Shown here one piece after another: positions 698 through 36,449 of a DNA stretch of 36,449 nucleotides (within the stretch, counting starts at the first letter, position 1; each line of letters starts with the position of its first letter). The DNA comes from a virus. Taxonomy: Duplodnaviria > Heunggongvirae > Uroviricota > Caudoviricetes. A program made the position numbers and the translations under genes. The notes beneath the pieces were generated by a model. It did no database searches, was not told the origin of the DNA, and worked only from the letters and a program-made list of their open reading frames with translations. The stretch lies in the IMG/VR virus record IMGVR_UViG_2541047954_000009; one strand, written 5' to 3'.

Positions 698-1060
698 GGG
701 GCTGATTCTGGATTCGACGGGATTTGCGAAACCCAAGGTGCATGCCGAGGGGCGGTTGGCCTCGTAAAAAGCCGCAAAAAATAGTCGCAAACGACGAAAA
801 CTACGCTTTAGCAGCTTAATAACCTGCTTAGAGCCCTCTCTCCCTAGCCTCCGCTCTTAGGACGGGGATCAAGAGAGGTCAAACCCAAAAGAGATCGCGT
901 GGAAGCCCTGCCTGGGGTTGAAGCGTTAAAACTTAATCAGGCTAGTTTGTTAGTGGCGTGTCCGTCCGCAGCTGGCAAGCGAATGTAAAGACTGACTAAG
1001 CATGTAGTACCGAGGATGTAGGAATTTCGGACGCGGGTTCAACTCCCGCCAGCTCCACCA
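698..1060 (+). ncRNA. ssrA: tmRNA (transfer-messenger RNA), 363 nt
   Basis: Begins GGGGCTGATTCTGGATTCGACGG, contains the tag-coding segment gcaaacgacgaaaactacgctttagcagcttaa (ANDENYALAA stop), and ends with the tRNA-like ...GGTTCAACTCCCGCCAGCTCCACCA; matches E. coli ssrA as remembered. Confidence 0.97.
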
Positions 1061-1061
1061 A
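1016..1061. repeat. attL: 46-bp direct repeat (ssrA 3' end), left prophage junction
   Basis: atgtaggaatttcggacgcgggttcaactcccgccagctccaccaa is repeated exactly at 34745-34790; the flanking bases diverge on both sides. Confidence 0.88.
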
Positions 1062-9554: not shown

Positions 9555-11290
9555 TATGCAGCCCTCACTATATAGTTAAATGCAATATTTCGCGCACGTG
9601 TTTCCGTTGATGTTCTGGCAACACGTGAGGCATCAAAATAATAATTCGCCTGTTTATATGTACCACCTGTCGCAATTGATGCGAGATTTGGTGTCAATGT
9701 TGAAGAGGTAAATGCGCCGACAGTATTATTATTTGGCCCCGTGGTCATATCCAAAAAGCTACCTGTAATATTTTGCAGCGTATCGCTCTGAGCACTCAAT
9801 AACGCTCGCCCACTGTCCACTCCACGCCCGTCATCCCAGCCACGAATAAACTCGCCACGAAGATCTGGTACTTTTCCTGATGGATATGCTGTAGCAAGGC
9901 GGGGGTATTTCACCTTATCAAAGGCAGCACCATTGCATTTCAACCAGCCTGTCGGCGGAGTGGAAGAAGGCCACGGAACAGGGACACCTACAGGTAATGC
10001 TGAACCTTCTCCCAAACCAAGGTACGCGAGAAGACCGGCAACATTCTTTCCACTTAAACTGGTAAGCGTATTGTCCAGTGGTTGTTTGCCCGCCAGCGCA
10101 TTAAGCATTGTCGTGGCAAAGTTCGGATCATTCCCCAGCGCCGCCGCCAGTTCGTTCAGTGTATCCAGTGCCGCAGGAGCAGAGCCCACCATTGCCGCAA
10201 TTGCCGATTTCACAAAAGCCGTGGTGGCAATCTGTGTATTGTTGGTCGACTGTGCCGCTGTAGGTGCTGTTGGTGTTCCGGTGAGTGCCGGACTCGACAG
10301 TGGCGCTTTCAGTGCCAGCGCATTGTTAATGGTGGTACTGAATTTCGGGTCATTATTAATGGCTGCGGCTATTTCTTTCAGCGTGTCCAGCGTGGCGGGC
10401 GCGCCATTAATCAGGGCTTTCTGTGCCGCCTGAACAAACGCCGTAGTGGCAATCTGTGTATTGTTGACCGACTGCGCCGCCGTGGGGGCTGTTGGCGTTC
10501 CGGTGAGTGCCGGACTCGACAACGGTGCTTTTAGTGCCAGCACATTGTTAATGGTGGTACTGAAATTCGGATCATTGTTAATGGCTGCGGCTATTTCTTT
10601 CAGCGTGTCCAGCGTGGCTGGCGCACCATTAATAAGGGCCGTCAGTGCCGCCTGTACAAACGCGGTGGTCGCAACCTGCGTGGTATTATTCCCCGCCGCT
10701 GGCGTTGGCGCTTTGGGGGTTCCGGTAAATGTCGGGCTGGCTTTTTGCGCGTACTGTGAATGTGGGTCCTGTGCAGCAAGATGTTTTGCCATCAGGTCAT
10801 CCACGTACACCTTCAGCTCCAGTACCTTGTCATCCACATACTTGCGGGTTGCCAGCACTACGGCAGGGTCGATTTTCAGGGTGATATTGTCCGTGCTGCT
10901 GGTAATCAGCACCATGCGCACGGTCTGGGTACGCCCGCTGCCTTCAGCCAGTTGCGGCTTATAGCTTTCCGGGCAGTTGCCCACGGCAATCAATGCCCCG
11001 GACTCATCAAACAGGCCCACTTCACGTATCCACCAACCGCCCTCGTTTTCAGGGATCACCTGTTCAGCAATAATCTGGCTACTGTTCTGCGGGTCGATAT
11101 AAAGCATATTCAACGCAGCCCGGCGTTTCTCATTTACCAGTGCCGTCTGCTTTGCGTCCGGCGTTGGTAATGTTCCGCCGCCATCGCCTACCGCCATATG
11201 GGTAATTTTTAACGGCACACCGATCGCGGCGGCGCTGGCAAGTTTCGCCGCGCCAATATCCGTCAGCAGGGTATAAAATTTTGTGCTCAT
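9554..11290 (-). CDS. H: Tail fiber protein H (578 aa) with internal tandem repeats
   Basis: N-terminus (MSTKFYTLLTDIGAAKLASAAAIGVPLKITHMAVGDGGG...) resembles P2 gpH; the central region holds about 2.5 copies of a 74-aa repeat (ALINGAPATLDTLKEIAAAINNDP...TQIATTAFV). Confidence 0.9.
   Translation of the reverse strand: MSTKFYTLLTDIGAAKLASAAAIGVPLKITHMAVGDGGGTLPTPDAKQTALVNEKRRAALNMLYIDPQNSSQIIAEQVIPENEGGWWIREVGLFDESGALIAVGNCPESYKPQLAEGSGRTQTVRMVLITSSTDNITLKIDPAVVLATRKYVDDKVLELKVYVDDLMAKHLAAQDPHSQYAQKASPTFTGTPKAPTPAAGNNTTQVATTAFVQAALTALINGAPATLDTLKEIAAAINNDPNFSTTINNVLALKAPLSSPALTGTPTAPTAAQSVNNTQIATTAFVQAAQKALINGAPATLDTLKEIAAAINNDPKFSTTINNALALKAPLSSPALTGTPTAPTAAQSTNNTQIATTAFVKSAIAAMVGSAPAALDTLNELAAALGNDPNFATTMLNALAGKQPLDNTLTSLSGKNVAGLLAYLGLGEGSALPVGVPVPWPSSTPPTGWLKCNGAAFDKVKYPRLATAYPSGKVPDLRGEFIRGWDDGRGVDSGRALLSAQSDTLQNITGSFLDMTTGPNNNTVGAFTSSTLTPNLASIATGGTYKQANYYFDASRVARTSTETRARNIAFNYIVRAA
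10224..10667. repeat. Two tandem, about 90% identical 222-bp repeat units inside tail fiber gene H (degenerate copies flank them)
   Basis: Unit 1 (10224-10445) and unit 2 (10446-10667) both begin gtggcaatctgtgtattgttg and align along their length. Confidence 0.85.
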
Positions 11291-19737: not shown

Positions 19738-21504
19738 ATGAACACCACACTGACACCCGCAGATCTCGATCCCCGTCGGCAGGCCATGCTGCTGTACTTT
19801 CAGGGATACCGCGTAGCCCGCATTGCTGAAATGCTGGGCGAGAAAGTTGCAACCGTTCACAGCTGGAAAAAACGCGACAAGTGGGGTGACTATGGGCCGC
19901 TGGATCAGATGCAGCTCACCACCACCGCACGCTACTGCCAGCTCATCATGAAGGAGCACAAAGAAGGGAAAGATTTCAAAGAGATTGACCTGCTGGCGCG
20001 CCAGTCGGAGCGCCACGCGCGGATCGGCAAGTTTAACAATGGCGGCAACGAAGCTGACTTAAACCCTAACGTCGCCAACCGCAACAAAGGCCCGCGCCGT
20101 CAGCCGGAAAAGAATGTCTTCACCGATGAACAGATTGAGAAGCTGGAAGAAATCTTCCATTCCTCCATGTTCAACTACCAGCGCCACTGGTGGGAAGCCG
20201 GAAAAACCAACCGCATCCGCAACCTGCTGAAGTCACGCCAGATCGGCGCGACCTTTTACTTTGCCCGTGAAGCCCTGATTGACGCCCTGCTTACCGGACG
20301 TAACCAGATTTTCCTTTCCGCCAGTAAGGCACAGGCCCACGTCTTTAAGCAGTACATCATCGACTTCGCCAAAGAAGTGGATGTGGAACTGAAAGGCGAT
20401 CCGATGGTGCTTCCTAACGGGGCCACGCTTTACTTCCTCGGCACCAATGCCCGCACGGCTCAGAGTTACCACGGCAACCTGTATCTGGATGAATATTTCT
20501 GGATACCAAAATTCCAGGAGCTGCGCAAAGTAGCTTCCGGTATGGCTATCCACAAAAAATGGCGGCAGACCTATTTTTCCACGCCATCCAGCCTGACACA
20601 CAGTGCTTATCCGTTCTGGTCCGGTGCGCTGTTCAACCGTGGGCGCAACAAAGCTGACAAGGTGGACATCGACCTGTCCCACAGCAATCTGGCCCCCGGC
20701 CTGCTGTGCGCAGACGGGCAATACCGCCAGATAGTCACCGTGGAAGATGCGGTGCGCGGCGGCTGTAACCTGTTCGACCTCGACCAGCTACGCATGGAGT
20801 ACAGCCCGGACGAATACCAGAACCTGCTGATGTGCGAGTTCGTGGACGATCTCGCGTCCGTGTTCCCGCTCAGCGAACTGCAGGCGTGCATGGTGGACAG
20901 TTGGGAAGTCTGGACCGACTTTCATGCACTGGCCCTGCGCCCGTTTGGCTGGCGCGAGGTGTGGATCGGTTATGACCCGGCAAAAGGTACGCAGAACGGC
21001 GACAGTGCCGGATGCGTGGTGGTGGCTCCGCCAGCCGTGCCGGGCGGTAAGTTCCGTATTCTTGAGCGTCACCAGTGGCGCGGGATGGACTTCCGCGCCC
21101 AGGCTGACGCCATCAAAAAACTTACCGAACAGTACAACGTGACTTATATCGGTATCGACTCAACCGGCGTTGGTCACGGGGTTTACGAGAACGTGAAAGC
21201 GTTCTTTCCTGCCGTCCGGGAGTTTGTCTACAACCCCAATGTTAAAAACGCCCTGGTACTCAAGGCCTACGACATTATCAGCCACCGCCGTCTGGAGTTT
21301 GACGCCGGACACACCGACATAGCGCAGTCATTCATAGCAATCCGGCGCGCCACCACCGCGAGCGGCAACCGCCCAACCTATGAAGCCAGCCGCAGCGAAG
21401 AAGCCAGCCACGCCGATCTGGCCTGGGCAACGATGCACGCACTGTTTAACGAACCGCTGCAGGGCGAATCCGCCAATACCAGCAATATTGTGGAGATTTT
21501 TTGA
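19738..21504 (+). CDS. P: Terminase large (ATPase) subunit P (588 aa)
   Basis: Resembles P2 gpP over its full length, including the ATPase core (KSRQIGATFYF...NLYLDEYFW). Confidence 0.93.
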   Translation: MNTTLTPADLDPRRQAMLLYFQGYRVARIAEMLGEKVATVHSWKKRDKWGDYGPLDQMQLTTTARYCQLIMKEHKEGKDFKEIDLLARQSERHARIGKFNNGGNEADLNPNVANRNKGPRRQPEKNVFTDEQIEKLEEIFHSSMFNYQRHWWEAGKTNRIRNLLKSRQIGATFYFAREALIDALLTGRNQIFLSASKAQAHVFKQYIIDFAKEVDVELKGDPMVLPNGATLYFLGTNARTAQSYHGNLYLDEYFWIPKFQELRKVASGMAIHKKWRQTYFSTPSSLTHSAYPFWSGALFNRGRNKADKVDIDLSHSNLAPGLLCADGQYRQIVTVEDAVRGGCNLFDLDQLRMEYSPDEYQNLLMCEFVDDLASVFPLSELQACMVDSWEVWTDFHALALRPFGWREVWIGYDPAKGTQNGDSAGCVVVAPPAVPGGKFRILERHQWRGMDFRAQADAIKKLTEQYNVTYIGIDSTGVGHGVYENVKAFFPAVREFVYNPNVKNALVLKAYDIISHRRLEFDAGHTDIAQSFIAIRRATTASGNRPTYEASRSEEASHADLAWATMHALFNEPLQGESANTSNIVEIF

Positions 21505-22211
21505 TGCCCCCAATCCCAACTAACCTCATGACTATCGCGGGACTTCCGGTGGATAGCTTTTTCTTTGCTTACCAGTATGAGTGGAACACTGGCCCAAAGA
21601 GTAGAAACCGTGTACTCACAAAAATGCGCCAGGCAGGCGCGGATTTCTTTTTTTCCTATGAAGCCCTGAACGATGCACTGCATACCGGGCGTAACCAGAT
21701 TTTCCTCTGCTGCAGCACAGCATCTGCGCAGGCAATCAAAGCCTATGTATCAGCATTCTTAAGCCAGGCCGCAGCTTATACGCACACTGGAAAAATAAAA
21801 TCAGGCAAAAGTCATCTGGAGCTTTCGAATGGTGCAGTAATTTATTTTACCGACCTCCGCAGTCTCACCTCCGCACTCAGTGGAAATGTTTACGTGTCAG
21901 AGTATGCCTGGAGTGAATCACCGAGAAATATGATTGCCATCGCTAAAGGGATTTCTATGCACGCACACCACCACGCCACCTACTACACCACTCCCAGCCC
22001 TAACCCAGAGGCACGGCAGGAATATAAAAAGCTATGCAGAAACAACAGCGTAACCAGCATGGTGTTCACCGCAGATGACGCAGCAGCATCTGGAGCAATG
22101 TTGTTTACTGATAACTGGCTGAACGATATGAAAAAAGAATTATCAGAAGAGGACTGGAAAATGCTGTTTATGTGCGAATGGCCTCTCGCTAGCAAGGAAC
22201 TGGCAGAATGA
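21504..22211 (+). CDS. Terminase ATPase-domain paralog (truncated, degenerate catalytic motifs), inserted between P and Q
   Basis: 235-aa ORF that aligns by eye to gpP residues about 145-385 of the same prophage (FAYQYEWNTGPKSRNRVLTKMRQAGADFFFSYEALNDALHTGRNQIFL versus FNYQRHWWEAGKTNRIRNLLKSRQIGATFYFAREALIDALLTGRNQIFL), with substitutions at the conserved Thr (to Asp) and Walker-B-like Asp (to Ser); start ATG overlaps the P stop (TGATG) and its stop overlaps the Q start (ATGA). Confidence 0.7.
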   Translation: MPPIPTNLMTIAGLPVDSFFFAYQYEWNTGPKSRNRVLTKMRQAGADFFFSYEALNDALHTGRNQIFLCCSTASAQAIKAYVSAFLSQAAAYTHTGKIKSGKSHLELSNGAVIYFTDLRSLTSALSGNVYVSEYAWSESPRNMIAIAKGISMHAHHHATYYTTPSPNPEARQEYKKLCRNNSVTSMVFTADDAAASGAMLFTDNWLNDMKKELSEEDWKMLFMCEWPLASKELAE

Positions 22212-23239
22212 GCAAACGTAAAAACACCAAGCAGGTAACAGTTGGTCACGACACAAAACCAAGCAACGGCCCAACGGCTGAGGCTTTCAGCTTTGGTGAT
22301 CCCATCCCCGTGCTGGACCGCCGCGAACTGCTGGACTATGTGGAATGCGTACAGATGGATCGCTGGTATGAGCCGCCCGTCAGCTTTAATGGACTGGCGC
22401 GCACCTTCCGCGCCGCCGTGCATCACAGTTCCCCGATTGCAGTAAAGTGCAACATTCTGACCAGTACCTATATCCCTCATCCGCTGCTTAGCCAGCAGGC
22501 TTTTTCGCGTTTTGTGCAGGACTATCTGGTATTTGGTAACGCCTACCTGGAGAAACGCACGAACCGCTTTGGTGAAGTTATCGCCCTTGAGCCAGCTTTG
22601 GCAAAATACACCCGGCGCGGATTAGACCTGGATACCTACTGGTTTGTGCAAGACGGTATGACAGCCCAGCCGTATCAGTTCACGAAAGGCAACATTTTTC
22701 ATCTGATGGAACCGGACATCAACCAGGAGATCTACGGCCTGCCAGGTTATCTCTCTGCCATCCCGTCAGCCCTGCTCAACGAGTCCGCCACACTGTTCCG
22801 CCGTAAGTATTACATCAACGGCAGCCATGCAGGTTTCATCATGTACATGACCGATGCCGCACAGAACCAAGAAGATGTGAACAACCTCCGCAACGCAATG
22901 AAAAGCGCCAAAGGGCCAGGCAACTTCCGCAACCTGTTTATGTACTCTCCTAACGGCAAAAAGGACGGGCTTCAGATTATCCCGTTGTCAGAAGTCGCGG
23001 CGAAGGATGAGTTTCTGAATATCAAGAACGTGAGCCGGGACGACATGATGGCGGCACACCGTGTGCCGCCGCAAATGATGGGGATAATGCCTAATAATGT
23101 TGGGGGGTTTGGGGATGTGGAGAAGGCTAGTAAGGTTTTTGTGATAAATGAATTAATTCCTTTGCAAAAACGATTTATGGAAATAAACGCATGGCTCGGG
23201 GAGAAACTTATAGAATTTTCTCCATATGAGCTTAACTAA
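22208..23239 (+). CDS. Q: Portal protein Q
   Basis: 343-aa ORF resembling P2 gpQ (AVHHSSPI, LNESATLFRRKYY, IPLSEVA segments). Confidence 0.93.
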   Translation: MSKRKNTKQVTVGHDTKPSNGPTAEAFSFGDPIPVLDRRELLDYVECVQMDRWYEPPVSFNGLARTFRAAVHHSSPIAVKCNILTSTYIPHPLLSQQAFSRFVQDYLVFGNAYLEKRTNRFGEVIALEPALAKYTRRGLDLDTYWFVQDGMTAQPYQFTKGNIFHLMEPDINQEIYGLPGYLSAIPSALLNESATLFRRKYYINGSHAGFIMYMTDAAQNQEDVNNLRNAMKSAKGPGNFRNLFMYSPNGKKDGLQIIPLSEVAAKDEFLNIKNVSRDDMMAAHRVPPQMMGIMPNNVGGFGDVEKASKVFVINELIPLQKRFMEINAWLGEKLIEFSPYELN

Positions 23240-23288: not shown

Positions 23289-25625
23289 TTACAAATATGT
23301 ATTGCTATGTAGAGATGTGTTTATTCCATCTTCTATCTCAATTTTTGACGAAGCATACTCATCATTCGCACTATCATCAATATCAAACTCATCTTGTAGA
23401 TGAAGTGACTCATTTAACGGTCTATAAAACTCACCCATCATCATTTTGTAATGGGCAGTATGCTCACTACACTCAAATATCTTCTGAAAAACAATTAAAT
23501 ATTTTTGCACAGACTCCGTATCTAAACTCATATAAAGATCATCACCTGCAAAATGAGAACCATCATTAATCCATGACACTAAAGATTTAAATATGATTTT
23601 TTCATCACCATAAAAATGACACTCAAGCTTCCTAATATCAATCCCACCTAATATCTTAAAGTAATTCTCCAAAATCCTTCGCATTGTATTTTGTATAGTA
23701 TTATTATTAATATCTGTTCTTCTCAATTCGCACCAGAGCAAATCATAAGACGTTTTTATTGGGTTTGATTCGCACTTTTCAAGATATGAGACCTTCCCTT
23801 TTTTCCTTACAATCCAAAAAGTCTCCTCTTTCATTGCTTGATTACCGGATCTTTTAGTATTAAAAGTCAACTCTTTATGAAAATAAATATTATGCGTAAG
23901 GAATATAATTTGCTTAATATTTCCTTCATCCTTACGAACATCCTCCATTAAATCTTTAATCAACGAACTTACAATAAACAGAATATCACTATCTAAACTT
24001 GAAATTGGATCATCAAATACTACAACACGATCATCTAAAACACCTGATGCATTATCACTCCCTCTAACAAGGCTATAAAAATACAAAAAAGTGATAAATG
24101 TCTTTTCTCCCTCGCTAAGGGTTGTACGAGCATTATCTCCACTATCTCTCACTATCATATAATGCTTTTTATCTTCGGAGGGTTTTAAGTAAAAATTTTT
24201 GAAGCCATAAGAATCCAGAATCTTGTTAATTTTTGTAATAGTTGGAAGAGTACTGGTTTTATTAGACTCAATTGCCTCAATAGCCGAAGCATTTAACATT
24301 AACTTCTTTTTGTCTTCCTCTAACCCAGATTTAAGTCCTTGTAACTTCCTATTAAATTTATCAGATTCGCTACGGTAAGAAGTTATTTCAGACTTTAACT
24401 CCACCTTTACGATATATGCCCATATCTGATTAGAAAGATTACTAGCCTCTACCTTTCTATTACTGTGTATTTTGTTATTATTATCTATCAATAGATTTGA
24501 ATCATTCAAAAAAGAAATAAAATCATCAACAACTTCACTTAAGTCACTAAAATGAACTGATTCACTTAAAAAATTGCGTTTATTTTTTGCCAATTCAAAA
24601 TTCTTGTTTAATTCAGATAATACTATCTTAGCCTTATCCTCAAATACTTCATAATTTATGAATGGAGATTTAATCGCCCTTATATCATCTATCGCCTGCA
24701 AGATATTATTAAGTTGATGTTCATATTGTAAAACCAATGCATCGATTTCTCTTTTTTTTAACTCATATGTTTTATCAAAATATGATGATAGATTATAAAA
24801 TATATTATCATTTACATCCTGCTGGCAAAATGGGCACTTGGGATTAGATTTACTGAAATATGTTAAACCTTCCTTAACCCAATCACTGTTATTGAGCATT
24901 GTAATTAAGTCTGAAACACTAACGTCTTTTTTCCCTAGAATACGCTCACTCCAAATCTCCCTACTCAAAATATCATCTATCCTATTGAAGGATGGAATTG
25001 TAATTGATACATGTGATGTCAATTCAGTAGAAAAAACAATTTTTGCTTTCTCAATTAGCTCTGCTATTGAGCAAACTTCTGATGTGTTATTTTCATACTC
25101 AGCCAACACTCTAGCTTTAAATTTTTCACTACTATTCCTTAATCCCTCAAAAGCCTTTGAGAACACATTATCATGTTTTACTTTTTGCTTCCAACATGAA
25201 TCTTTAAAAGATTTTTCATGGTCTTCGATTTGTTTAACAACGCCTAATATATTATCACCACCATCTATTAGCTTTTCCTTTGCTATAATAGATTCTATTA
25301 GCTTATTTTTTTCTTCTTCAAGAGATATTAGTTTCTCTTCATCCTCCTTAAGATCGCTACCAAGGGTAAATACACCTTTAATTTTATCTTGACTAAAATT
25401 TCTTTCAACAAAATCTTTATTATATACGTAGCTTATTAAAGATATATTATTTTTCCATTTAATCGGACATGTTGGATATTGTTCAGGGTCATTAATAATT
25501 TTACTTATAGTTGTTTTACCTGCACCATTAGCTCCATATAAATAGTTAAATTTAGAAAGCCCATGTAAAAGCTGAGTAGGGCCATTATATGAGCCTACTT
25601 TGTCAATAACTACCTCTTCAATCAT
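23289..25625 (-). CDS. ABC-type P-loop ATPase of the PrrC/RloC-like AAA_13 kind (778 aa); candidate anti-phage/abortive-infection protein
   Basis: Walker A YGANGAGKTT (aa 30-39, nt 25509-25535), CPFC zinc-hook-like motif (aa 264-267, nt 24825-24836) in a Lys/Glu-rich coiled-coil-like insert, ABC signature-like LSEGEK (aa 503-508), Walker B VVVFDDP (aa 534-540, nt 24006-24026), H-loop THN (aa 577-579), and a C-terminal region with RRILENYF and SH. Markedly AT-rich, between Q and the cos site. Confidence 0.75.
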   Translation of the reverse strand: MIEEVVIDKVGSYNGPTQLLHGLSKFNYLYGANGAGKTTISKIINDPEQYPTCPIKWKNNISLISYVYNKDFVERNFSQDKIKGVFTLGSDLKEDEEKLISLEEEKNKLIESIIAKEKLIDGGDNILGVVKQIEDHEKSFKDSCWKQKVKHDNVFSKAFEGLRNSSEKFKARVLAEYENNTSEVCSIAELIEKAKIVFSTELTSHVSITIPSFNRIDDILSREIWSERILGKKDVSVSDLITMLNNSDWVKEGLTYFSKSNPKCPFCQQDVNDNIFYNLSSYFDKTYELKKREIDALVLQYEHQLNNILQAIDDIRAIKSPFINYEVFEDKAKIVLSELNKNFELAKNKRNFLSESVHFSDLSEVVDDFISFLNDSNLLIDNNNKIHSNRKVEASNLSNQIWAYIVKVELKSEITSYRSESDKFNRKLQGLKSGLEEDKKKLMLNASAIEAIESNKTSTLPTITKINKILDSYGFKNFYLKPSEDKKHYMIVRDSGDNARTTLSEGEKTFITFLYFYSLVRGSDNASGVLDDRVVVFDDPISSLDSDILFIVSSLIKDLMEDVRKDEGNIKQIIFLTHNIYFHKELTFNTKRSGNQAMKEETFWIVRKKGKVSYLEKCESNPIKTSYDLLWCELRRTDINNNTIQNTMRRILENYFKILGGIDIRKLECHFYGDEKIIFKSLVSWINDGSHFAGDDLYMSLDTESVQKYLIVFQKIFECSEHTAHYKMMMGEFYRPLNESLHLQDEFDIDDSANDEYASSKIEIEDGINTSLHSNTYL

Positions 25626-26567: not shown

Positions 26568-28982
26568 TTAATACAGGTTCCGCCACTGATCATCTTCCTG
26601 CAAACGCTGGTTCCGATAGAAGATACGCAGGCCTGCTCCTGACGGAATACTGCCTCCGCGAAGGAGTAAATCGACCTCTTTCTCGCTGCCATCAAATCCT
26701 CTGGACTTCAGCTCATACACGAGCTGCAGTCGCTGATGGTCTGTAATTCGCTGTTTGTAGTCTTTACGCCGTTTCGGTTTCACCAGGCGTAACCTTGCTG
26801 CCAGTTCCCGGCGCTCTTTTTTGCTCATACTGTGCAGGTAATCGTGCAACTCCTTGTCATCCATGCTGGTAATGTCCGTTCTGGGGTCCCCATCAGCTGA
26901 TTTATCTTTCTCCTGTTGGTTCAAATTTTCAGCAAGGGGACAGTTATTGCCACGAGTCCAAGGGGCGCAAGCGCCCTGGTCGGCTGCCGCCTCCTGAACG
27001 TCAACGGCCTTACGAACCATTTTCCACTTCACGGCATGAGTGCAGATTTTGCCCTCTGCAATGGGTGACCAGATGCCATAAATACGAATGCCGTGATCGC
27101 CATAGGCGGTCGGCTCTTCGTTGATTTCATAAGCGGTTCTGATGAGGTGATATTTGCGGGGGACCAGTACGCCGCCCTGCTTCATGATGTAGGTGGCAAA
27201 ACAACCAGCATCAGCTGCAGCCAGAATGGCATCAAGGCGCGGGTTATCCAGTACCGGCGCACCTGCTTTTTTGTCACCCTGTTGCCTTGCCGCCTGACCA
27301 GCCAGCAATCGCAGTTCACGGTAAGCCTGACGCCCCGGAATGCCAAAGAAGCGGAATTGCTGAACACGATGCAGAGACGCCCAGGCATTAACGTATTCAG
27401 CGTTATCACGCAGAGATTTACCCGTTTCCTTGCTGATCTCGCCAGCCAGACCACGCCCGTCAATGTTCTTACTGATGTATTTCGCGATGTAGCTAGTCGG
27501 CGTTCCTTTGCGCGGGTTTATCAGCTCAGACTTAAAGCGTGGCCCCGTGTTATTACCCAGCTCCTCGCGGTCTTCACGAATGGCAAACTTACGCAACAAA
27601 GCAGTAATGGTGCGGCGATCTTTTTTGCGCATAAAACACAACAGGTGCCAGTGAACTGTACCGTCATGATGCGGCTCAGCCACCCGCACGCCATACCAGC
27701 GCAATCCGGCTTTGTGCATCGCCTTACGAAATGCAGCAAACATGCCGACCAGATAATCACTGCTTTGTCTTACCGTCGTATTTGTCCAGGTCGGGTTGGG
27801 CCTGCCGTTATTTAGCGTGGAATGGAAACGTGACGGACAGGTGATGGTGTAGAAAACGGCGCAGTCACCGCGCATTTCCGCGATAAGCTCCAGACCTTTA
27901 ACACAGGCCATCATCTCATTGCGGCGATGCGCAGGGTTGCTGCTGCTGGCGTTTACCACATCCTCCATGTCCAGCGTGTCGCCGTCTTCGTTCACCAGTT
28001 CATGAGAACGGAAAAACTCCAGCGACTTACGGCGCTGCTCACGTTTATGCATCACGGCTTCATAGCTGACATAGGGAGATGCTTTTTTGCTGACCAGGCA
28101 AACAGCACGCAACTGCTCTTCCCGCCATTCGCAACGCATCTTCCATAATTTCCGGTACCACCAATCGGCGCACAACATACGCGCCAGCGAACCCGGAATG
28201 AGTTCATAGGGCACGGGTTTACGGCGGTTTCTTTTCCGGCGGAGTTGCTCAAACGCAGGCGGTATGACATCCAGTCGCAGGGTTTCTGCTGCCACCTTTT
28301 CCCATGTCTTGCGGATTTCTTCTGGCTTAACGTCATCGGTGGCATACAAATCGCCACAAGCTGCATCAAGGCACATGCTCATATGCGCAGCAACAAGGGT
28401 GGACAGGCGTTTCACCTGATCCTGACTCATTTCAGGCAGAATCAGCAGGCCGTCCAGCCCTTCATGGCTTGCCATAAAGCGAAAAGAAGTGGATAGCTGA
28501 CTGTCGCGTACATGCTCCAGCCGTTCCAGACATGGCTTAATCGTCTCACGCAAATAGCGGGAATAAGCCTTTGGCCTGCCAAGGCTGCTGAAGTATTCAA
28601 TACGTTGCATCAGCGGCCTGCTGATATGGGAAGGCTGGGCGTTAACGTCTGCCAGAATGACCATGTCCGGGTTAAAACGCTGCTGCTCATGCGCCAACTT
28701 TGCCCGGCTAATGAGCTTATCCTGCTCCATTTCGCGCTGGACAGGATCACGGGATTCATTAAAGAAATAACGCTCCCAAACCTGATCACTCAGTGCCTCG
28801 CGGCGCAGTTGTTCCTGCTCGTTATCGGCAGCGTACAGAGTGATCAGGTTTGAAAGCGCAGAAACCGGCGCAACTTCCGCCGGGTCCAGATAAGGGTTAA
28901 TAGCCTTTTTCGGGCTGTTCCATGAGAATGCTGCGGCGGCCTCGTTAAAGCCGCTGCAGTTGTTCATATCAGCATGGCTCAT
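26568..28982 (-). CDS. A: Replication initiation protein A (rolling-circle endonuclease, 804 aa)
   Basis: Long ORF resembling the P2/186 gpA replication protein family as remembered; located in the early region upstream of the cos-proximal genes. Confidence 0.88.
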
Positions 28983-32328: not shown

Positions 32329-32961
32329 ATGTTAAACATCAGAATGGGTTCCGATACGGGAGGTAAGGCAGCTATTGAGAGGCTGCTTGAGGCTTATGGA
32401 TTCACAACTAAGCAGGCATTAAGCGAGCACCTGAATGTCTCAAAAAGTACTATGGCAAACAGAGTGTTACGTGACAGTTTTCCTGCTGACTGGATAATTC
32501 AGTGTGCACTAGAAACCGGTGTTTCGTTACTTTGGTTAGCCACTGGACAGGGAAGCATGAAAGAAGGATACGAGCCTGAGAAAAGATCTCATAACGAGAA
32601 CAAACAAGCAATTAAACCGTTATCCAAACTCATAACTCCATCTATTCCTAAAGGAACCTTGGAAAATGGACAACTCAGTATTGATGAAGAGATTTTCCTA
32701 GACCACAGCATATTACCTGCAGATTATGAAGAATCGATGTTCTTAGAAACCCCTACTGATTGTTATCTCATCGATAAATCAGTTAAACAAGTCAGCAATG
32801 GATTCTGGCTTATCAATATTGATGGAATGATTATTATTGCAAAAATCATGCGGATTCCCGGCAATAAGATTGTAGTAAATCAAGATGAAGCGTCTTTCGA
32901 GTGCTCTGCTGATGATGTGGAAGTTATTGGGCGTGCAGTCAAAGTAATAAAGAGTATCTAA
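32329..32961 (+). CDS. cI: CI-like immunity repressor (210 aa)
   Basis: ORF with an N-terminal HTH-like region (TTKQALSEHLNVSKSTMANRV), divergent from the apl-like gene and directly followed by int as in 186; RBS GGAG 7 nt upstream. Confidence 0.75.
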   Translation: MLNIRMGSDTGGKAAIERLLEAYGFTTKQALSEHLNVSKSTMANRVLRDSFPADWIIQCALETGVSLLWLATGQGSMKEGYEPEKRSHNENKQAIKPLSKLITPSIPKGTLENGQLSIDEEIFLDHSILPADYEESMFLETPTDCYLIDKSVKQVSNGFWLINIDGMIIIAKIMRIPGNKIVVNQDEASFECSADDVEVIGRAVKVIKSI

Positions 32962-32963
32962 AC

Positions 32964-33980
32964 ATGACTGTCAGAAAACAGCCAAACGGTAAATGGTTGT
33001 GCGAGTGCTATCCCAATGGACGCAATGGCAAGCGCGTGCGTAAGCAATTTGCTACGAAAGGCGAAGCCATTGCTTTTGAAAGCTTCACAATGGAAGAAGT
33101 GAACAAAAAACCATGGCTGGGGGAAAAGGAAGATCGGCGACACCTATCAGAATTAATTGAGCAGTGGTATTCCCTGTATGGTCAAACACTCGCAGACCCC
33201 AAGCGCCTCATAGCGAAACTTAGAATTATCTGTAATGGTCTAGGCGATCCCATCGCTTCAGAACTGACAGCCGGTGACTTTACGAAATACCGCGAAGCAC
33301 GGTTAAAAGGTGAAGTACGAAATGAAGATGGCACGTTTATGTCGCCCGTTAAGCCCCGCACGGTAAACCTTGAACAGCGCAATCTATCATCTGTTTTTGG
33401 TACACTGAAAAAGCTGGGCCACTGGTCAGCCCCCAACCCGCTTGCTGGGCTGCCAACATTTAAAATTGCTGAGAGTGAATTGGCGTTCCTGACCCCGGAA
33501 GAAATTAAACGTCTGCTGGATGCCTGCGCCGATTCTCAAAGCTCCAGCCTGCTTTTGATTGCAAAAATATGCCTGGCCACCGGCGCACGCTGGAGCGAAG
33601 CCGAAAACCTGCAGAGTCATCAGGTATCAAAATACCGTATCACTTATACCAAGACCAAAGGCAAGAAAAACCGAACTGTGCCTATTTCTAAGGATTTATA
33701 TGAAGAACTGCCTAAGAATAGGGGGAAGTTATTCACCCCATGCAGAAAAGCCTTTGAGCGTGCAGTAAAGCGGGCTGGTATCGATCTGCCAGAGGGTCAA
33801 TGTACTCACGTTCTGCGTCATACATTCGCTAGCCATTTTATGATGAATGGTGGAAACATATTGGTTTTGCGGGATATCCTAGGACATTCAGATATAAAAA
33901 TGACCATGGTCTATGCACACTTCGCCCCAGACCATTTAGAAGATGCCGTAACTAAAAATCCTTTATTTAATTTGAGGTAA
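32964..33980 (+). CDS. int: Tyrosine site-specific integrase (P2/186 Int family)
   Basis: 338-aa ORF with the C-terminal catalytic region of tyrosine recombinases (ATGARWSEAENL...HVLRHTFASHFMMNGGNILVLRDILGHSDIKMTMVYAH); adjacent to the att site. Confidence 0.93.
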   Translation: MTVRKQPNGKWLCECYPNGRNGKRVRKQFATKGEAIAFESFTMEEVNKKPWLGEKEDRRHLSELIEQWYSLYGQTLADPKRLIAKLRIICNGLGDPIASELTAGDFTKYREARLKGEVRNEDGTFMSPVKPRTVNLEQRNLSSVFGTLKKLGHWSAPNPLAGLPTFKIAESELAFLTPEEIKRLLDACADSQSSSLLLIAKICLATGARWSEAENLQSHQVSKYRITYTKTKGKKNRTVPISKDLYEELPKNRGKLFTPCRKAFERAVKRAGIDLPEGQCTHVLRHTFASHFMMNGGNILVLRDILGHSDIKMTMVYAHFAPDHLEDAVTKNPLFNLR

Positions 33981-33990
33981 GTAGTAATTT

Positions 33991-34659
33991 ATGAATAGCG
34001 AACTAGAGTTACTTATAAAAATATTATTCCCTTCCCTATCTGCCATTATATCCTTATTAGGGCTTAAAACAGGGTGGACTTATAAAAAAGACAAACTATT
34101 CACATCACGTAAAAACATTAGCGAATTTTCATATCAAATGTATAAAAGCAGTGAAGATCCGACCTTCAAAAAACTGGCGGAAGATTACGGCATTGCTGCA
34201 TTAACCAAAGATAACACATTGACAAAAAAACAAAGATTAATATTACTCAACACAACAAACCCCGTTAGCGATATAGATGATTATTCCAAATGTCAAAGTC
34301 TAATTTCCATTACCACCCATAAAGAAATATTCGCATGGAATAAAAAAAGATATAAATACAGCATATATAGAAAATTAATAAAAATTATAACAACTCTAAT
34401 TTACTTCATGGGCAGTCTCGTCGTAGCACTTCCTTTCAGTTATTCTGTTGTAGTAAGTGCTAAGATGATGGAGAAGATAAACCATCTAACTACTTGGCAA
34501 TACTTTGGTTTAAGCAGCTATTTTGTGGTATCGGGAGTAGCAATATGCTTTATCTGCCTAGATAAGCTCTCCAAGATTAAGATCGCCGAGAGATTAATCG
34601 TTTCAAATAGGCGTTTAGGCGACAAATGCAGTGGCGGCACTTTGGCGGCAGAAAGTTAA
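33991..34659 (+). CDS. AT-rich accessory membrane protein (222 aa) between int and attR
   Basis: ORF with an N-terminal hydrophobic segment (LLIKILFPSLSAIISLLGL) and two C-terminal hydrophobic helices (ITTLIYFMGSLVVALPFSYSVVV; FGLSSYFVVSGVAICFICL); AT-rich with a weak RBS; no recognisable family. Confidence 0.55.
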   Translation: MNSELELLIKILFPSLSAIISLLGLKTGWTYKKDKLFTSRKNISEFSYQMYKSSEDPTFKKLAEDYGIAALTKDNTLTKKQRLILLNTTNPVSDIDDYSKCQSLISITTHKEIFAWNKKRYKYSIYRKLIKIITTLIYFMGSLVVALPFSYSVVVSAKMMEKINHLTTWQYFGLSSYFVVSGVAICFICLDKLSKIKIAERLIVSNRRLGDKCSGGTLAAES

Positions 34660-34744
34660 AAACCCATAAAACGGACAGACACCGCATAAATCTAACCAAC
34701 TGAAAATCAAAGCAAATCATTGTTTTTACAGACATTGAAATGCT

Positions 34745-34790
34745 ATGTAGGAATTTCGGACGCGGGTTCAACTCCCGCCAGCTCCACCAA
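34745..34790. repeat. attR: 46-bp direct repeat of the ssrA 3' end, right prophage junction
   Basis: Exact copy of 1016-1061; the sequences on either side diverge. Confidence 0.88.
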
Positions 34791-34917
34791 TCATGATTGG
34801 ACGGTGTAAGGACTACACCAACAAAAACAGGAAGTTATAAGTCTCAGCAGGACACCGACCAGACGGTGAGGAGACAAAAAAGGATACGCAACGGAGTCGC
34901 GACTCCCTATGACATTA

Positions 34918-34942
34918 AAGCCCGCTGATGCGGGCTTTTTTA
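34918..34942 (+). terminator. Rho-independent terminator in chromosomal DNA downstream of attR
   Basis: Stem AGCCCGC/GCGGGCT with loop TGAT, followed by TTTTTTATT. Confidence 0.6.
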
Positions 34943-35372
34943 TTGGTCCTGACCCGCCCTGAATAGAATTCATCCAATTACAGTCCAGACATATACAGTA
35001 TCCCTCAGCTCAGTATCAGCTTCTCGACAAATGGTCACTGTTATTTACCCGTTGCCAGAAAGAGAATAATTTGCCCCCATAGCCAGCCTTCCTGGAATCT
35101 GTATATTCATTAATATTGTTATCGATTCCATCAAGTAACATAGGTTGGATGCGATTGATCTTACTCACATTAGTCGACACGGAACTCAGTAAGTTGAACT
35201 CTGAAAAAGCAGTTTAAATAGCATTTAAACAAATGCCACCAGTTCGAAAAAGAGTATAAGCACACTTAATATATTGTTTTAATTATTCATTTCCTTTCAA
35301 CCCAATTCTTATCCCTCACATTATTTGTTATTAATTTGTTGTTTTTGATCACAATAAGAAAACAATATGTAA

Positions 35373-36449
<1,077 letters not shown>

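What the first reader, a model, noticed from the sequence alone, without database searches (positions are those of the whole stretch)
33991..34659. AT-rich membrane protein inserted between integrase and attR
A 222-aa ORF with one N-terminal and two C-terminal predicted transmembrane helices follows int directly. Its codon usage is very AT-rich (many AAA/ATA/TTA codons), unlike the prophage backbone. Small membrane proteins at prophage ends are often superinfection-exclusion or abortive-infection factors. Together with the BRCT gene at the other junction, it suggests that both flanks of the att site act as cargo slots.
Basis: inference. Interest (0 to 1): 0.55.

Follow-up and report, generated by a model that had tools for sequence, protein, structure and literature searches.

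The report
Uncharacterised membrane cargo gene beside prophage integrase
A real, AT-rich gene for a three-helix inner-membrane protein of unknown family sits in a swappable slot between the integrase and the attachment site of a 186/P2-like E. coli prophage, where related phages carry known anti-phage genes, so it is a good but untested candidate for a new single-gene phage-defence or exclusion protein.

Summary
ORF 33991-34659 (+, 222 aa) starts 10 nt after int. It ends inside the conserved attP arm, 85 nt before the 46-nt ssrA att core. Its GC is 34.5% against 50.8% for the prophage, and it has three hydrophobic helices.

It is a real gene. About 55 representative homologues keep its length and architecture, AlphaFold confidence is high, and all 14 E. 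coli copies examined are intact.

It matches no Pfam, NCBIfam, PADLOC or PDB entry. Its only family match is a PHROG of unknown function, and its fold has no structural relative.

Related 186-like prophages fill the same int-att interval with nothing, with GapS1, with an anti-phage dCTP deaminase, or with other unknown genes. A 2026 paper already lists this interval as a minor P2 defence hotspot. Diverged homologues (67%, 52%, 51%) occupy the same slot. Others stand alone in chromosomes, and one opens an operon beside a BrxR regulator and a Rosmer system.

The best reading is a lysogen-expressed, single-gene membrane defence or exclusion factor. Its conserved about 100-aa domain is predicted to face the cytoplasm. 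The function is inferred, not shown. This is a new candidate of a known kind, of moderate interest.

The parts
33991..34659 (+). ORF222, the cargo gene: 222 aa, 34.5% GC. It encodes a predicted N-out/C-in inner-membrane protein with three TM helices.
   Evidence: Family of about 55 representative homologues. Full-length match to phrog_21256, function unknown.
34003..34068 (+). TM helix 1 (about aa 5-26). The N-terminus has no K/R. The helix is followed by a K/R-rich stretch (6 K/R in aa 26-45).
   Evidence: Hydropathy and charge counts. AlphaFold helix 2-54.
34069..34374 (+). Conserved soluble domain (about aa 27-128), predicted cytoplasmic. Motifs: SEF, YG(I/Y)AALT.D..LT..QR..LL and W..(K/R)RY...YR. 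This is the best conserved part of the family.
34375..34569 (+). TM hairpin: TM2 (about aa 129-157), a short and poorly conserved periplasmic loop (158-170), and TM3 (about aa 171-193).
33974..33977 (+). GAGG, a possible ribosome-binding site 13 nt upstream of the ATG, directly before the int stop codon (33978-33980). The gene is tightly coupled to int.
   Evidence: Read from the sequence. Int-ORF gaps of 1-14 nt are kept in diverged homologues.
32964..33980 (+). Tyrosine integrase of a P2/186-like phage.
   Evidence: Pfam Int_N and Phage_integrase; phrog_1.
32329..32961 (+). 186-type CI repressor, the first gene of the presumed cI-int-ORF222 lysogenic transcript.
   Evidence: Pfam Phage_CI_repr and Phage_CI_C. 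No +-strand promoter-like or terminator-like site between 32838 and 34916.
34632..34744 (+). Conserved attP arm, about 80% identical to SEN8, Cartapus, RE2010 and Klebsiella phages. It starts with the tandem TGGCGGCA (34632-34639) and TGGCGGCA (34643-34650), which are likely Int arm-type sites. The last 9 codons and the stop codon of ORF222 lie inside it.
   Evidence: That the tandem repeats bind Int is inference.
34745..34790 (+). attR core: a 46-nt copy of the 3' end of ssrA.
1016..1061 (+). attL core, within the intact tmRNA gene (698-1060).

Best explanation
ORF222 is a horizontally acquired, single-gene cargo ('moron') in the int-attP slot of a 186-like (Peduoviridae) prophage integrated in E. 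coli ssrA.

Shown:
- It lies inside the prophage.
- It replaces nothing essential, because relatives have the slot empty or filled with other genes.
- It belongs to a small uncharacterised protein family.
- It encodes a protein with three predicted membrane helices.

Inferred:
- The topology is N-out/C-in, and the conserved about 100-aa helical domain faces the cytoplasm.
- It is transcribed with cI and int from the lysogenic promoter, so it is made in the lysogen.
- It protects the lysogen against other phages at the inner membrane.

The mechanism I consider most likely is abortive-infection-like. The cytoplasmic domain senses a phage-derived cue. The TM1 helix plus the TM2/TM3 hairpin then self-associates to leak or depolarise the membrane.

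A block of genome entry (classical superinfection exclusion) is the close second. The overall anti-phage role is more probable than either specific mechanism.
For: Location and swapping:
- The 46-nt att repeat brackets the element.
- SEN8 has int directly followed by the attP arm.
- Cartapus carries a 401-aa gene in the slot, and a Klebsiella phage carries a 516-aa GapS1-family protein.
- E. coli prophages whose int is 83-92% identical at nucleotide level carry 309-, 412-, 418- and 408-aa unknown genes, GapS1, or an anti-phage dCTP deaminase. For all of these except the 412-aa case (L037, no exact att match) the att core lies downstream of the gene.
- PMC13586616 reports int-att as a minor P2 defence hotspot holding 3% of P2 systems. 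In that paper six of eight P4 hotspot loci containing only genes of unknown function protected against phages.

Long association with the slot: homologues at 67% (Siccibacter), 52% (P0015), 51% (L024) and 49% identity (L025, behind a second cargo gene) all follow cI-int.

Autonomy: homologues stand alone in the chromosomes of Klebsiella quasipneumoniae and an Orbaceae bacterium.

Defence neighbourhood: the distant homologue P0052 is the first gene of a four-gene operon next to a BrxR-family regulator and a Rosmer pair. The pair is RmrT (208 bits) plus an HTH-M78 protein. A neighbouring gene set including an AAA_22 ATPase suggests, by inference, a Tn7-like transposon.

Expression logic: the gap after int is 10 nt, and no promoter-like or terminator-like site lies between cI and the ORF's end.

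Topology and conservation:
- K/R counts are 0 at the N-terminus, 6 after TM1, 8 before TM2, 2 in the loop and 7 in the C-tail.
- The cytoplasmic core is the best conserved region and the periplasmic loop the least.

The same prophage carries a PADLOC PDC-S06 gene in the canonical gpA-gpQ hotspot.
Against: There is no homology to any known defence, exclusion or abortive-infection family in Pfam, NCBIfam (June 2026), PADLOC or PHROGs.

No structural relative was found in the PDB or BFVD.

No expression or phenotype data exist, and no paper mentions the protein.

Guilt by location is statistical only. In the cited paper 15-32% of P2 genes of unknown function scored as defensive by machine learning.

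Some homologues sit in contexts that do not point to defence: a metabolic neighbourhood in Klebsiella, next to rpsI/rplM in the Orbaceae bacterium, next to DUF6708, and next to a DtrJ-like conjugation gene.

The gene is rare, present in 29 of 5426 complete E. coli genomes.
Confidence: 0.55

Rival explanations
1. Classical superinfection exclusion. The protein sits in the inner membrane and blocks genome delivery of incoming phages. It could do so by plugging or masking the inner-membrane entry route or a host channel protein, without killing the cell.
For: It is a small prophage-encoded inner-membrane protein, probably expressed with the repressor. That matches the general design of P22 SieA, T4 Imm and HK97 gp15 (my own knowledge of those proteins). 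It lies in a defence and exclusion hotspot.
Against: Only about 4 N-terminal residues and a 13-residue, poorly conserved, gap-prone loop would face the periplasm. The conserved part is cytoplasmic. No homology to any annotated exclusion PHROG. Stand-alone chromosomal homologues, and one inside a four-gene operon, are unusual for phage-specific exclusion proteins.
Confidence: 0.2
2. A membrane fitness factor that is not anti-phage. One example is an orphan immunity protein against a membrane-targeting bacteriocin or contact-dependent (T6SS/CDI) toxin. Another is a modulator of a host envelope protein.
For: Small polytopic membrane proteins that occur as orphans in chromosomes and mobile elements are typical of immunity genes (my own knowledge). 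The homologue P0035 sits beside a DUF6708 protein. DUF6708 appears only in two T6SS papers in the library. The Klebsiella and Orbaceae homologues are isolated genes.
Against: No toxin gene is adjacent in the window or in any prophage copy. No match to colicin, T6SS or other immunity families in Pfam or NCBIfam; the one T6SS-named hit has E=0.89 over the TM region. The conserved surface is cytoplasmic, whereas pore-former immunity acts within the membrane. The slot's known occupants are anti-phage genes.
Confidence: 0.15
3. A phage-benefiting function in the phage's own life cycle, such as lysis timing (holin-like), control of integration or excision, or lysogeny maintenance. Alternatively it is neutral hitch-hiking DNA with no function.
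For: The three-TM N-out/C-in topology resembles class I holins (my own knowledge). The gene is tightly coupled to int. It is rare in E. coli.
Against: Most related phages lack the gene and are viable; SEN8 and Cartapus are isolated phages. It lies outside the late genes and, at 222 aa with a 100-aa soluble domain, is twice the size of a holin. The family is conserved down to about 23% identity with fixed architecture. The alleles are intact with pN/pS of about 0.3, which argues against junk. Homologues exist outside phages.
Confidence: 0.1

Closest known systems
Cargo of the integrase-att defence hotspot of P2-like prophages (PMC13586616, 2026). Examples found here in the same slot are GapS1 (GAPS1, bioRxiv 10.1101/2023.03.28.534373) and an anti-phage dCTP deaminase.
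   Same: Same position: directly after int and before the attP arm. It is a single gene, differs between otherwise similar prophages, and is AT-rich relative to the backbone.
   Different: There is no sequence or fold relation to GapS1, the dCTP deaminase or any listed defence protein. It is a small membrane protein rather than a soluble enzyme. No phenotype is known.
Prophage superinfection-exclusion membrane proteins (P22 SieA, T4 Imm, HK97 gp15).
   Same: A small inner-membrane protein encoded by a temperate phage, likely expressed in the lysogen.
   Different: No homology in PHROGs or Pfam. The bulk and the conserved part are cytoplasmic. Family members also occur outside phages.
Membrane effectors of abortive-infection systems (SLATT and 2TM/4TM effectors of CBASS and retrons, RexB, Kiwa KwaA).
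   Same: A TM hairpin plus a soluble cytoplasmic module. A distant homologue is the first gene of a multigene operon in a defence island.
   Different: No Pfam SLATT or PADLOC effector match. Single hits in 1 of 45 members are at chance level. In the prophage it acts alone, with no partner sensor gene.
phrog_21256
   Same: Full-length match, 509 bits, residues 1-222 of 222. The protein is a member of this PHROG.
   Different: The PHROG has no annotated function, so membership adds nothing about what the protein does.

Membership tests
P2/186-like int-att hotspot cargo | The gene lies inside the element, between the integrase gene and the att core. | tested here: met
   int ends at 33980, the ORF spans 33991-34659, and the att core is at 34745-34790.
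P2/186-like int-att hotspot cargo | The interval is variable among related prophages with conserved flanks. | tested here: met
   The slot is empty in SEN8 and holds six or more unrelated occupants in Cartapus, a Klebsiella phage and E. coli prophages. The int 3' end and the attP arm are conserved.
P2/186-like int-att hotspot cargo | Known defence genes occur in the same interval. | tested here: met
   GapS1 is present (NCBIfam 393 bits, cut-off 320; also the RefSeq annotation). An anti-phage dCTP deaminase lies upstream of the att core in locus L038.
Anti-phage defence or exclusion protein (functional class) | Reduces infection by at least one phage when expressed. | not testable with these tools
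   This needs plaque, adsorption and DNA-entry assays.
Anti-phage defence or exclusion protein (functional class) | Sequence membership in a catalogued defence family. | tested here: not met
   In PADLOC v2 the best hit is 1TM-TIR at E=0.015, found in 1 of 45 family members. NCBIfam 2026 gives no hit below E=0.5.
Superinfection-exclusion proteins (SieA, Imm, gp15 type) | Homology to an annotated exclusion family. | tested here: not met
   Only phrog_21256 (unknown function) matches. Other PHROG hits have E>0.06.
Superinfection-exclusion proteins (SieA, Imm, gp15 type) | Inner-membrane location and expression from the prophage. | tested here: inconclusive
   Three TM helices are predicted. Co-transcription with cI-int is inferred from the absence of promoter and terminator signals. 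No expression data exist.
SLATT and 2TM abortive-infection effectors | Match to the SLATT Pfam families or to PADLOC effector models. | tested here: not met
   None of the 45 members hits a SLATT family at E<=0.01. One member hits a 4TM effector model at E=0.0064, and one hits RTasSLATT at E=0.11.
Class I holin | About 100 aa, three closely spaced TM helices, encoded in the lysis cassette. | tested here: not met
   The protein is 222 aa with a 100-aa soluble domain between TM1 and TM2. The gene sits beside int rather than among the late genes.
Winged-helix DNA-binding domain (considered for aa 57-116) | Structural match to wHTH proteins. | tested here: not met
phrog_21256 | Full-length profile match. 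| tested here: met
   E=2e-153, residues 1-222 aligned to profile positions 1-222.

The most novel reading that the evidence does not exclude
ORF222 would found a new family of membrane-anchored anti-phage proteins with a cytoplasmic sensor domain of a fold not seen before. The family would work alone when carried as prophage cargo or as a chromosomal orphan. In a diverged form it would serve as the membrane component of an unannotated, BrxR-associated four-gene system (202/519/275/1723 aa) in a defence-rich locus that may be a Tn7-like transposon.
Probability: 0.4. Interest if true: 0.6.

Novelty: new member of a known kind. Interest (0 to 1): 0.4.

Why it matters
If the protein protects against phages, it adds a compact 222-aa single-gene membrane-based defence or exclusion family that no current catalogue recognises.

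It would also support treating the int-att interval of P2/186-like prophages as a practical place to mine single-gene systems. Half of the slot occupants seen here are unannotated.

The family's cytoplasmic domain has no structural relative, so its trigger or target would be new information.

If it has no phenotype, the result is still useful as a caution about guilt by location in minor hotspots.

Tried and rejected
- tblastn of the protein against 50,697 phage records and 72,556 plasmids found no match. The gene is known only from prophages in bacterial assemblies and IMG/VR contigs.
- The PADLOC '1TM-TIR' lead (E=0.015, covering most of both sequences) was rejected. Only 1 of 45 family members hits it.
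- The afdb50 fold library was not available.
- The search for related loci could not use the diverse alignment A2. With A1 the single genome scan returned only one truncated Buttiauxella copy.
- A profile search of the word-indexed protein database added little.
- The depositors' 'RES domain' label for the Cartapus slot gene was not reproduced by Pfam, NCBIfam or PADLOC at E<1e-3.
- Rfam found no RNA family in the interval.
- Literature searches for the RefSeq accessions and for the PHROG identifier found nothing.

Full report
**Setting.** The window holds a complete 186-like (P2-related, Peduoviridae) prophage inserted in the E. coli tmRNA gene.
- ARAGORN and Rfam find ssrA at 698-1060.
- A perfect 46-nt direct repeat of its 3' end lies at 1016-1061 and 34745-34790. 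These are attL and attR.
- Beyond attR the host gene glaH begins at 35472.
- At the right end of the prophage three genes run on the + strand: a 186-type CI repressor (32329-32961), a tyrosine integrase (32964-33980) and the ORF in question (33991-34659).

- The ORF has 222 codons, starts 10 nt after the int stop, and ends 85 nt before the att core.
- Its GC content is 34.5%. Int has 46.4%, the prophage 50.8% and glaH 54.9%.
- Hydropathy gives three hydrophobic stretches, at about residues 5-26, 129-157 and 171-193.
- Lys and Arg cluster after TM1 (6), before TM2 (8) and after TM3 (7). The N-terminus has none and the TM2-TM3 loop two. By the positive-inside rule, which is established knowledge, this predicts an N-out/C-in protein whose 100-residue middle domain is cytoplasmic.
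- AlphaFold with a 45-sequence alignment gives mean pLDDT 89.6 and helices at the same places.

**It is a real gene.**
- The word-indexed protein search found 14 clusters, at 44-100% identity to the query.
- The exhaustive search of 1.84 billion representatives found 55 at E<=1e-3 and 27 at E<=1e-10, nearly all 200-230 aa.
- The 45-sequence alignment keeps the architecture and a set of motifs in the soluble domain: SEF, YG(I/Y)AALT.D..LT..QR..LL and W..(K/R)RY...YR. L77, R82, W116, Y138 and A199 are near-invariant.
- The cytoplasmic core (residues 56-128) is the most conserved region. The periplasmic loop is the least conserved.
- Fourteen E. coli and viral-contig copies are all intact. Five synonymous and six non-synonymous variable sites give pN/pS of about 0.32; the numbers are small.

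**What it is not.**
- No Pfam, NCBIfam (June 2026) or PADLOC family matches the protein or its relatives.
- The only family hit is phrog_21256, full length, with no annotated function.
- A weak PADLOC hit to '1TM-TIR' (E=0.015) occurs in one of 45 members, so I treat it as chance.
- No paper in the library mentions the RefSeq accessions or the PHROG.

**The slot.**
- The stretch 34632-34790 is about 80% identical to the attP region of SEN8, Cartapus, RE2010, SopEPhi and Klebsiella phages.
- The aligned sequences show that conservation starts at a tandem TGGCGGCA...TGGCGGCA (34632-34650). I take these to be Int arm-type sites, which is inference. The last nine codons and the stop of ORF222 lie inside this arm.
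- Conservation on the other side ends at the int stop codon.
- Between these two fixed points:
  - SEN8 has nothing.
  - Cartapus has a 401-aa gene.
  - Klebsiella phage ST437-OXA245phi4.1 has a 516-aa GapS1-family protein, at 393 bits against a cut-off of 320.
- An integrase of this type occurs in 199 of 5426 complete E. coli genomes.
- Six sampled prophages with int 83-92% identical at nucleotide level carry in the slot:
  - genes of 309, 412, 418 and 408 aa with no annotation;
  - a GapS1 family protein;
  - an anti-phage dCTP deaminase on the opposite strand.
  The att core lies downstream of the gene in five of the six. L037, with the 412-aa gene, gave no exact att match.
- ORF222 itself is in 29 genomes. 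In the four contexts examined it follows cI-int at ssrA. The 32 integrase copies at 95% identity or more are about as many as the 29 ORF222 carriers. I did not check that they are the same genomes.
- That survey also reports that six of eight P4 hotspot loci containing only genes of unknown function protected against phages when tested.
- GAPS1 is an experimentally described single-protein anti-phage system (bioRxiv 10.1101/2023.03.28.534373).

**The family elsewhere.** Diverged homologues occupy the same slot:
- 67% identity in Siccibacter colletis, followed by a large protein with a cytidine/dCMP deaminase domain on the opposite strand;
- 52% in a metagenomic contig;
- 51% in viral contig L024;
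- 49% in L025, where a second 387-aa cargo gene sits between int and the homologue.

Int-to-ORF gaps of 1-14 nt are kept throughout.

Other homologues are not in phages:
- a 48% relative with hundreds of member sequences is an isolated gene among metabolic genes in Klebsiella quasipneumoniae;
- a 41% relative stands alone near rpsI/rplM in an Orbaceae genome;
- one lies next to a DtrJ-like conjugation gene, and one next to a DUF6708 protein.

The 27% relative P0052 has the most informative context.
- It is the first gene of a tight four-gene operon (202, 519, 275 and 1723 aa). None of the three partner proteins has a Pfam, NCBIfam or PADLOC match, and the two searched against PDB sequences (519 and 1723 aa) gave no hit.
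- The operon is transcribed divergently from a BrxR-family regulator.
- It lies beside a Rosmer pair: RmrT at 208 bits plus an HTH-M78 protein.
- Neighbouring genes including an AAA_22 ATPase suggest a Tn7-like element; that is my inference.

**How it most likely works.**

Shown: it is a swappable, AT-rich, single-gene insert in a slot that holds anti-phage genes in relatives. It encodes a conserved protein with three predicted membrane helices.

Inferred:
- The conserved domain faces the cytoplasm.
- No sigma-70-like promoter or intrinsic terminator is predicted on the + strand between 32838 and 34916. In phage 186 the lysogenic promoter drives cI and int (established knowledge). The gene is therefore probably made in the lysogen as the third gene of that transcript.
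- An anti-phage role follows from location and from the defence neighbourhood of a distant relative.

On mechanism:
- I favour an abortive-infection-like action, in which the cytoplasmic domain senses a phage cue and the helices disturb the membrane. Conservation is concentrated on the cytoplasmic side and almost nothing is exposed to the periplasm.
- A block of DNA entry remains a close rival.
- A non-phage function, such as orphan immunity to a membrane-targeting toxin, cannot be excluded.
- A role in the phage's own cycle is unlikely. Isolated relatives lack the gene, and homologues exist outside phages.

**Verdict.** The exclusion or abortive-infection label is plausible but untested. The protein family is uncharacterised and has no detectable relatives by sequence or fold. 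It is a reasonable candidate for experimental testing rather than a surprise: a new member of a known kind, of moderate interest.

Noticed in passing
window 23289-25625 (- strand): A 777-aa P-loop protein in a 29-32% GC island lies between the portal gene (22208-23239) and the gpA replication gene (26568-28982). This is the canonical P2 defence hotspot. It matches the PADLOC candidate system PDC-S06 at 880 bits, with weaker PrrC and LmuB similarity.
   Followed up: partly
It is 98% identical to Cartapus CARTA_32, annotated as 'putative exonuclease'. Its C-terminal 70 residues hit PADLOC PDC-S48 (E=7e-7). It has no Pfam hit at E<1e-3. Cartapus therefore shares this flank but not the int-att cargo.
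   Followed up: partly
window 21501-22211 (+ strand): A 236-aa ORF is wedged between the large terminase gene (19738-21504) and the portal gene. It resembles an internal part of the terminase: a 96-nt repeat at 20236-20331 and 21627-21722 is 74% identical. It may be a partial duplication or a second terminase-like gene.
   Followed up: no
window 10202-10645: Two tandem copies of a 222-nt unit, 88% identical to each other. The gene that contains them was not examined.
   Followed up: no
L034 8001-16193 (Logan SRR30681683 contig): A four-gene operon (202, 519, 275 and 1723 aa) begins with a distant ORF222 homologue. The three partner proteins have no Pfam, NCBIfam or PADLOC match, and the 519- and 1723-aa proteins have no PDB sequence match. 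The operon lies next to a BrxR-family regulator and a Rosmer (RmrT plus HTH-M78) pair, in what may be a Tn7-like element (an AAA_22 ATPase is nearby). It may be an undescribed defence system.
   Followed up: partly
L025 6124-7287: A second cargo gene of 387 aa, with a hydrophobic C-terminal part and no family match, lies between int and the ORF222 homologue in a different P2-like viral contig. The slot can therefore hold stacked genes.
   Followed up: partly
L036, L037, L039, L041 (E. coli prophages), int-att slot: Four different unannotated proteins of 309-418 aa occupy the same slot. None has an NCBIfam match. They were not scanned against Pfam or PADLOC. They are further untested hotspot candidates.
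   Followed up: partly
window 34791-35471; loci L002, L003, L004: In the window, attR is followed by about 680 bp of non-coding, partly AT-rich DNA with a strong terminator-like hairpin at 34917-34938, and then glaH. In other strains the same attR is followed by another integrase-bearing island or by ypjA. ssrA therefore carries tandem arrays of elements in some strains.
   Followed up: no
L001 (strain H22): The 25-nt att-core pattern found in the other E. coli loci gave no exact match in this locus, although its ORF222 is 99.9% identical to the window's. The cause was not examined.
   Followed up: no
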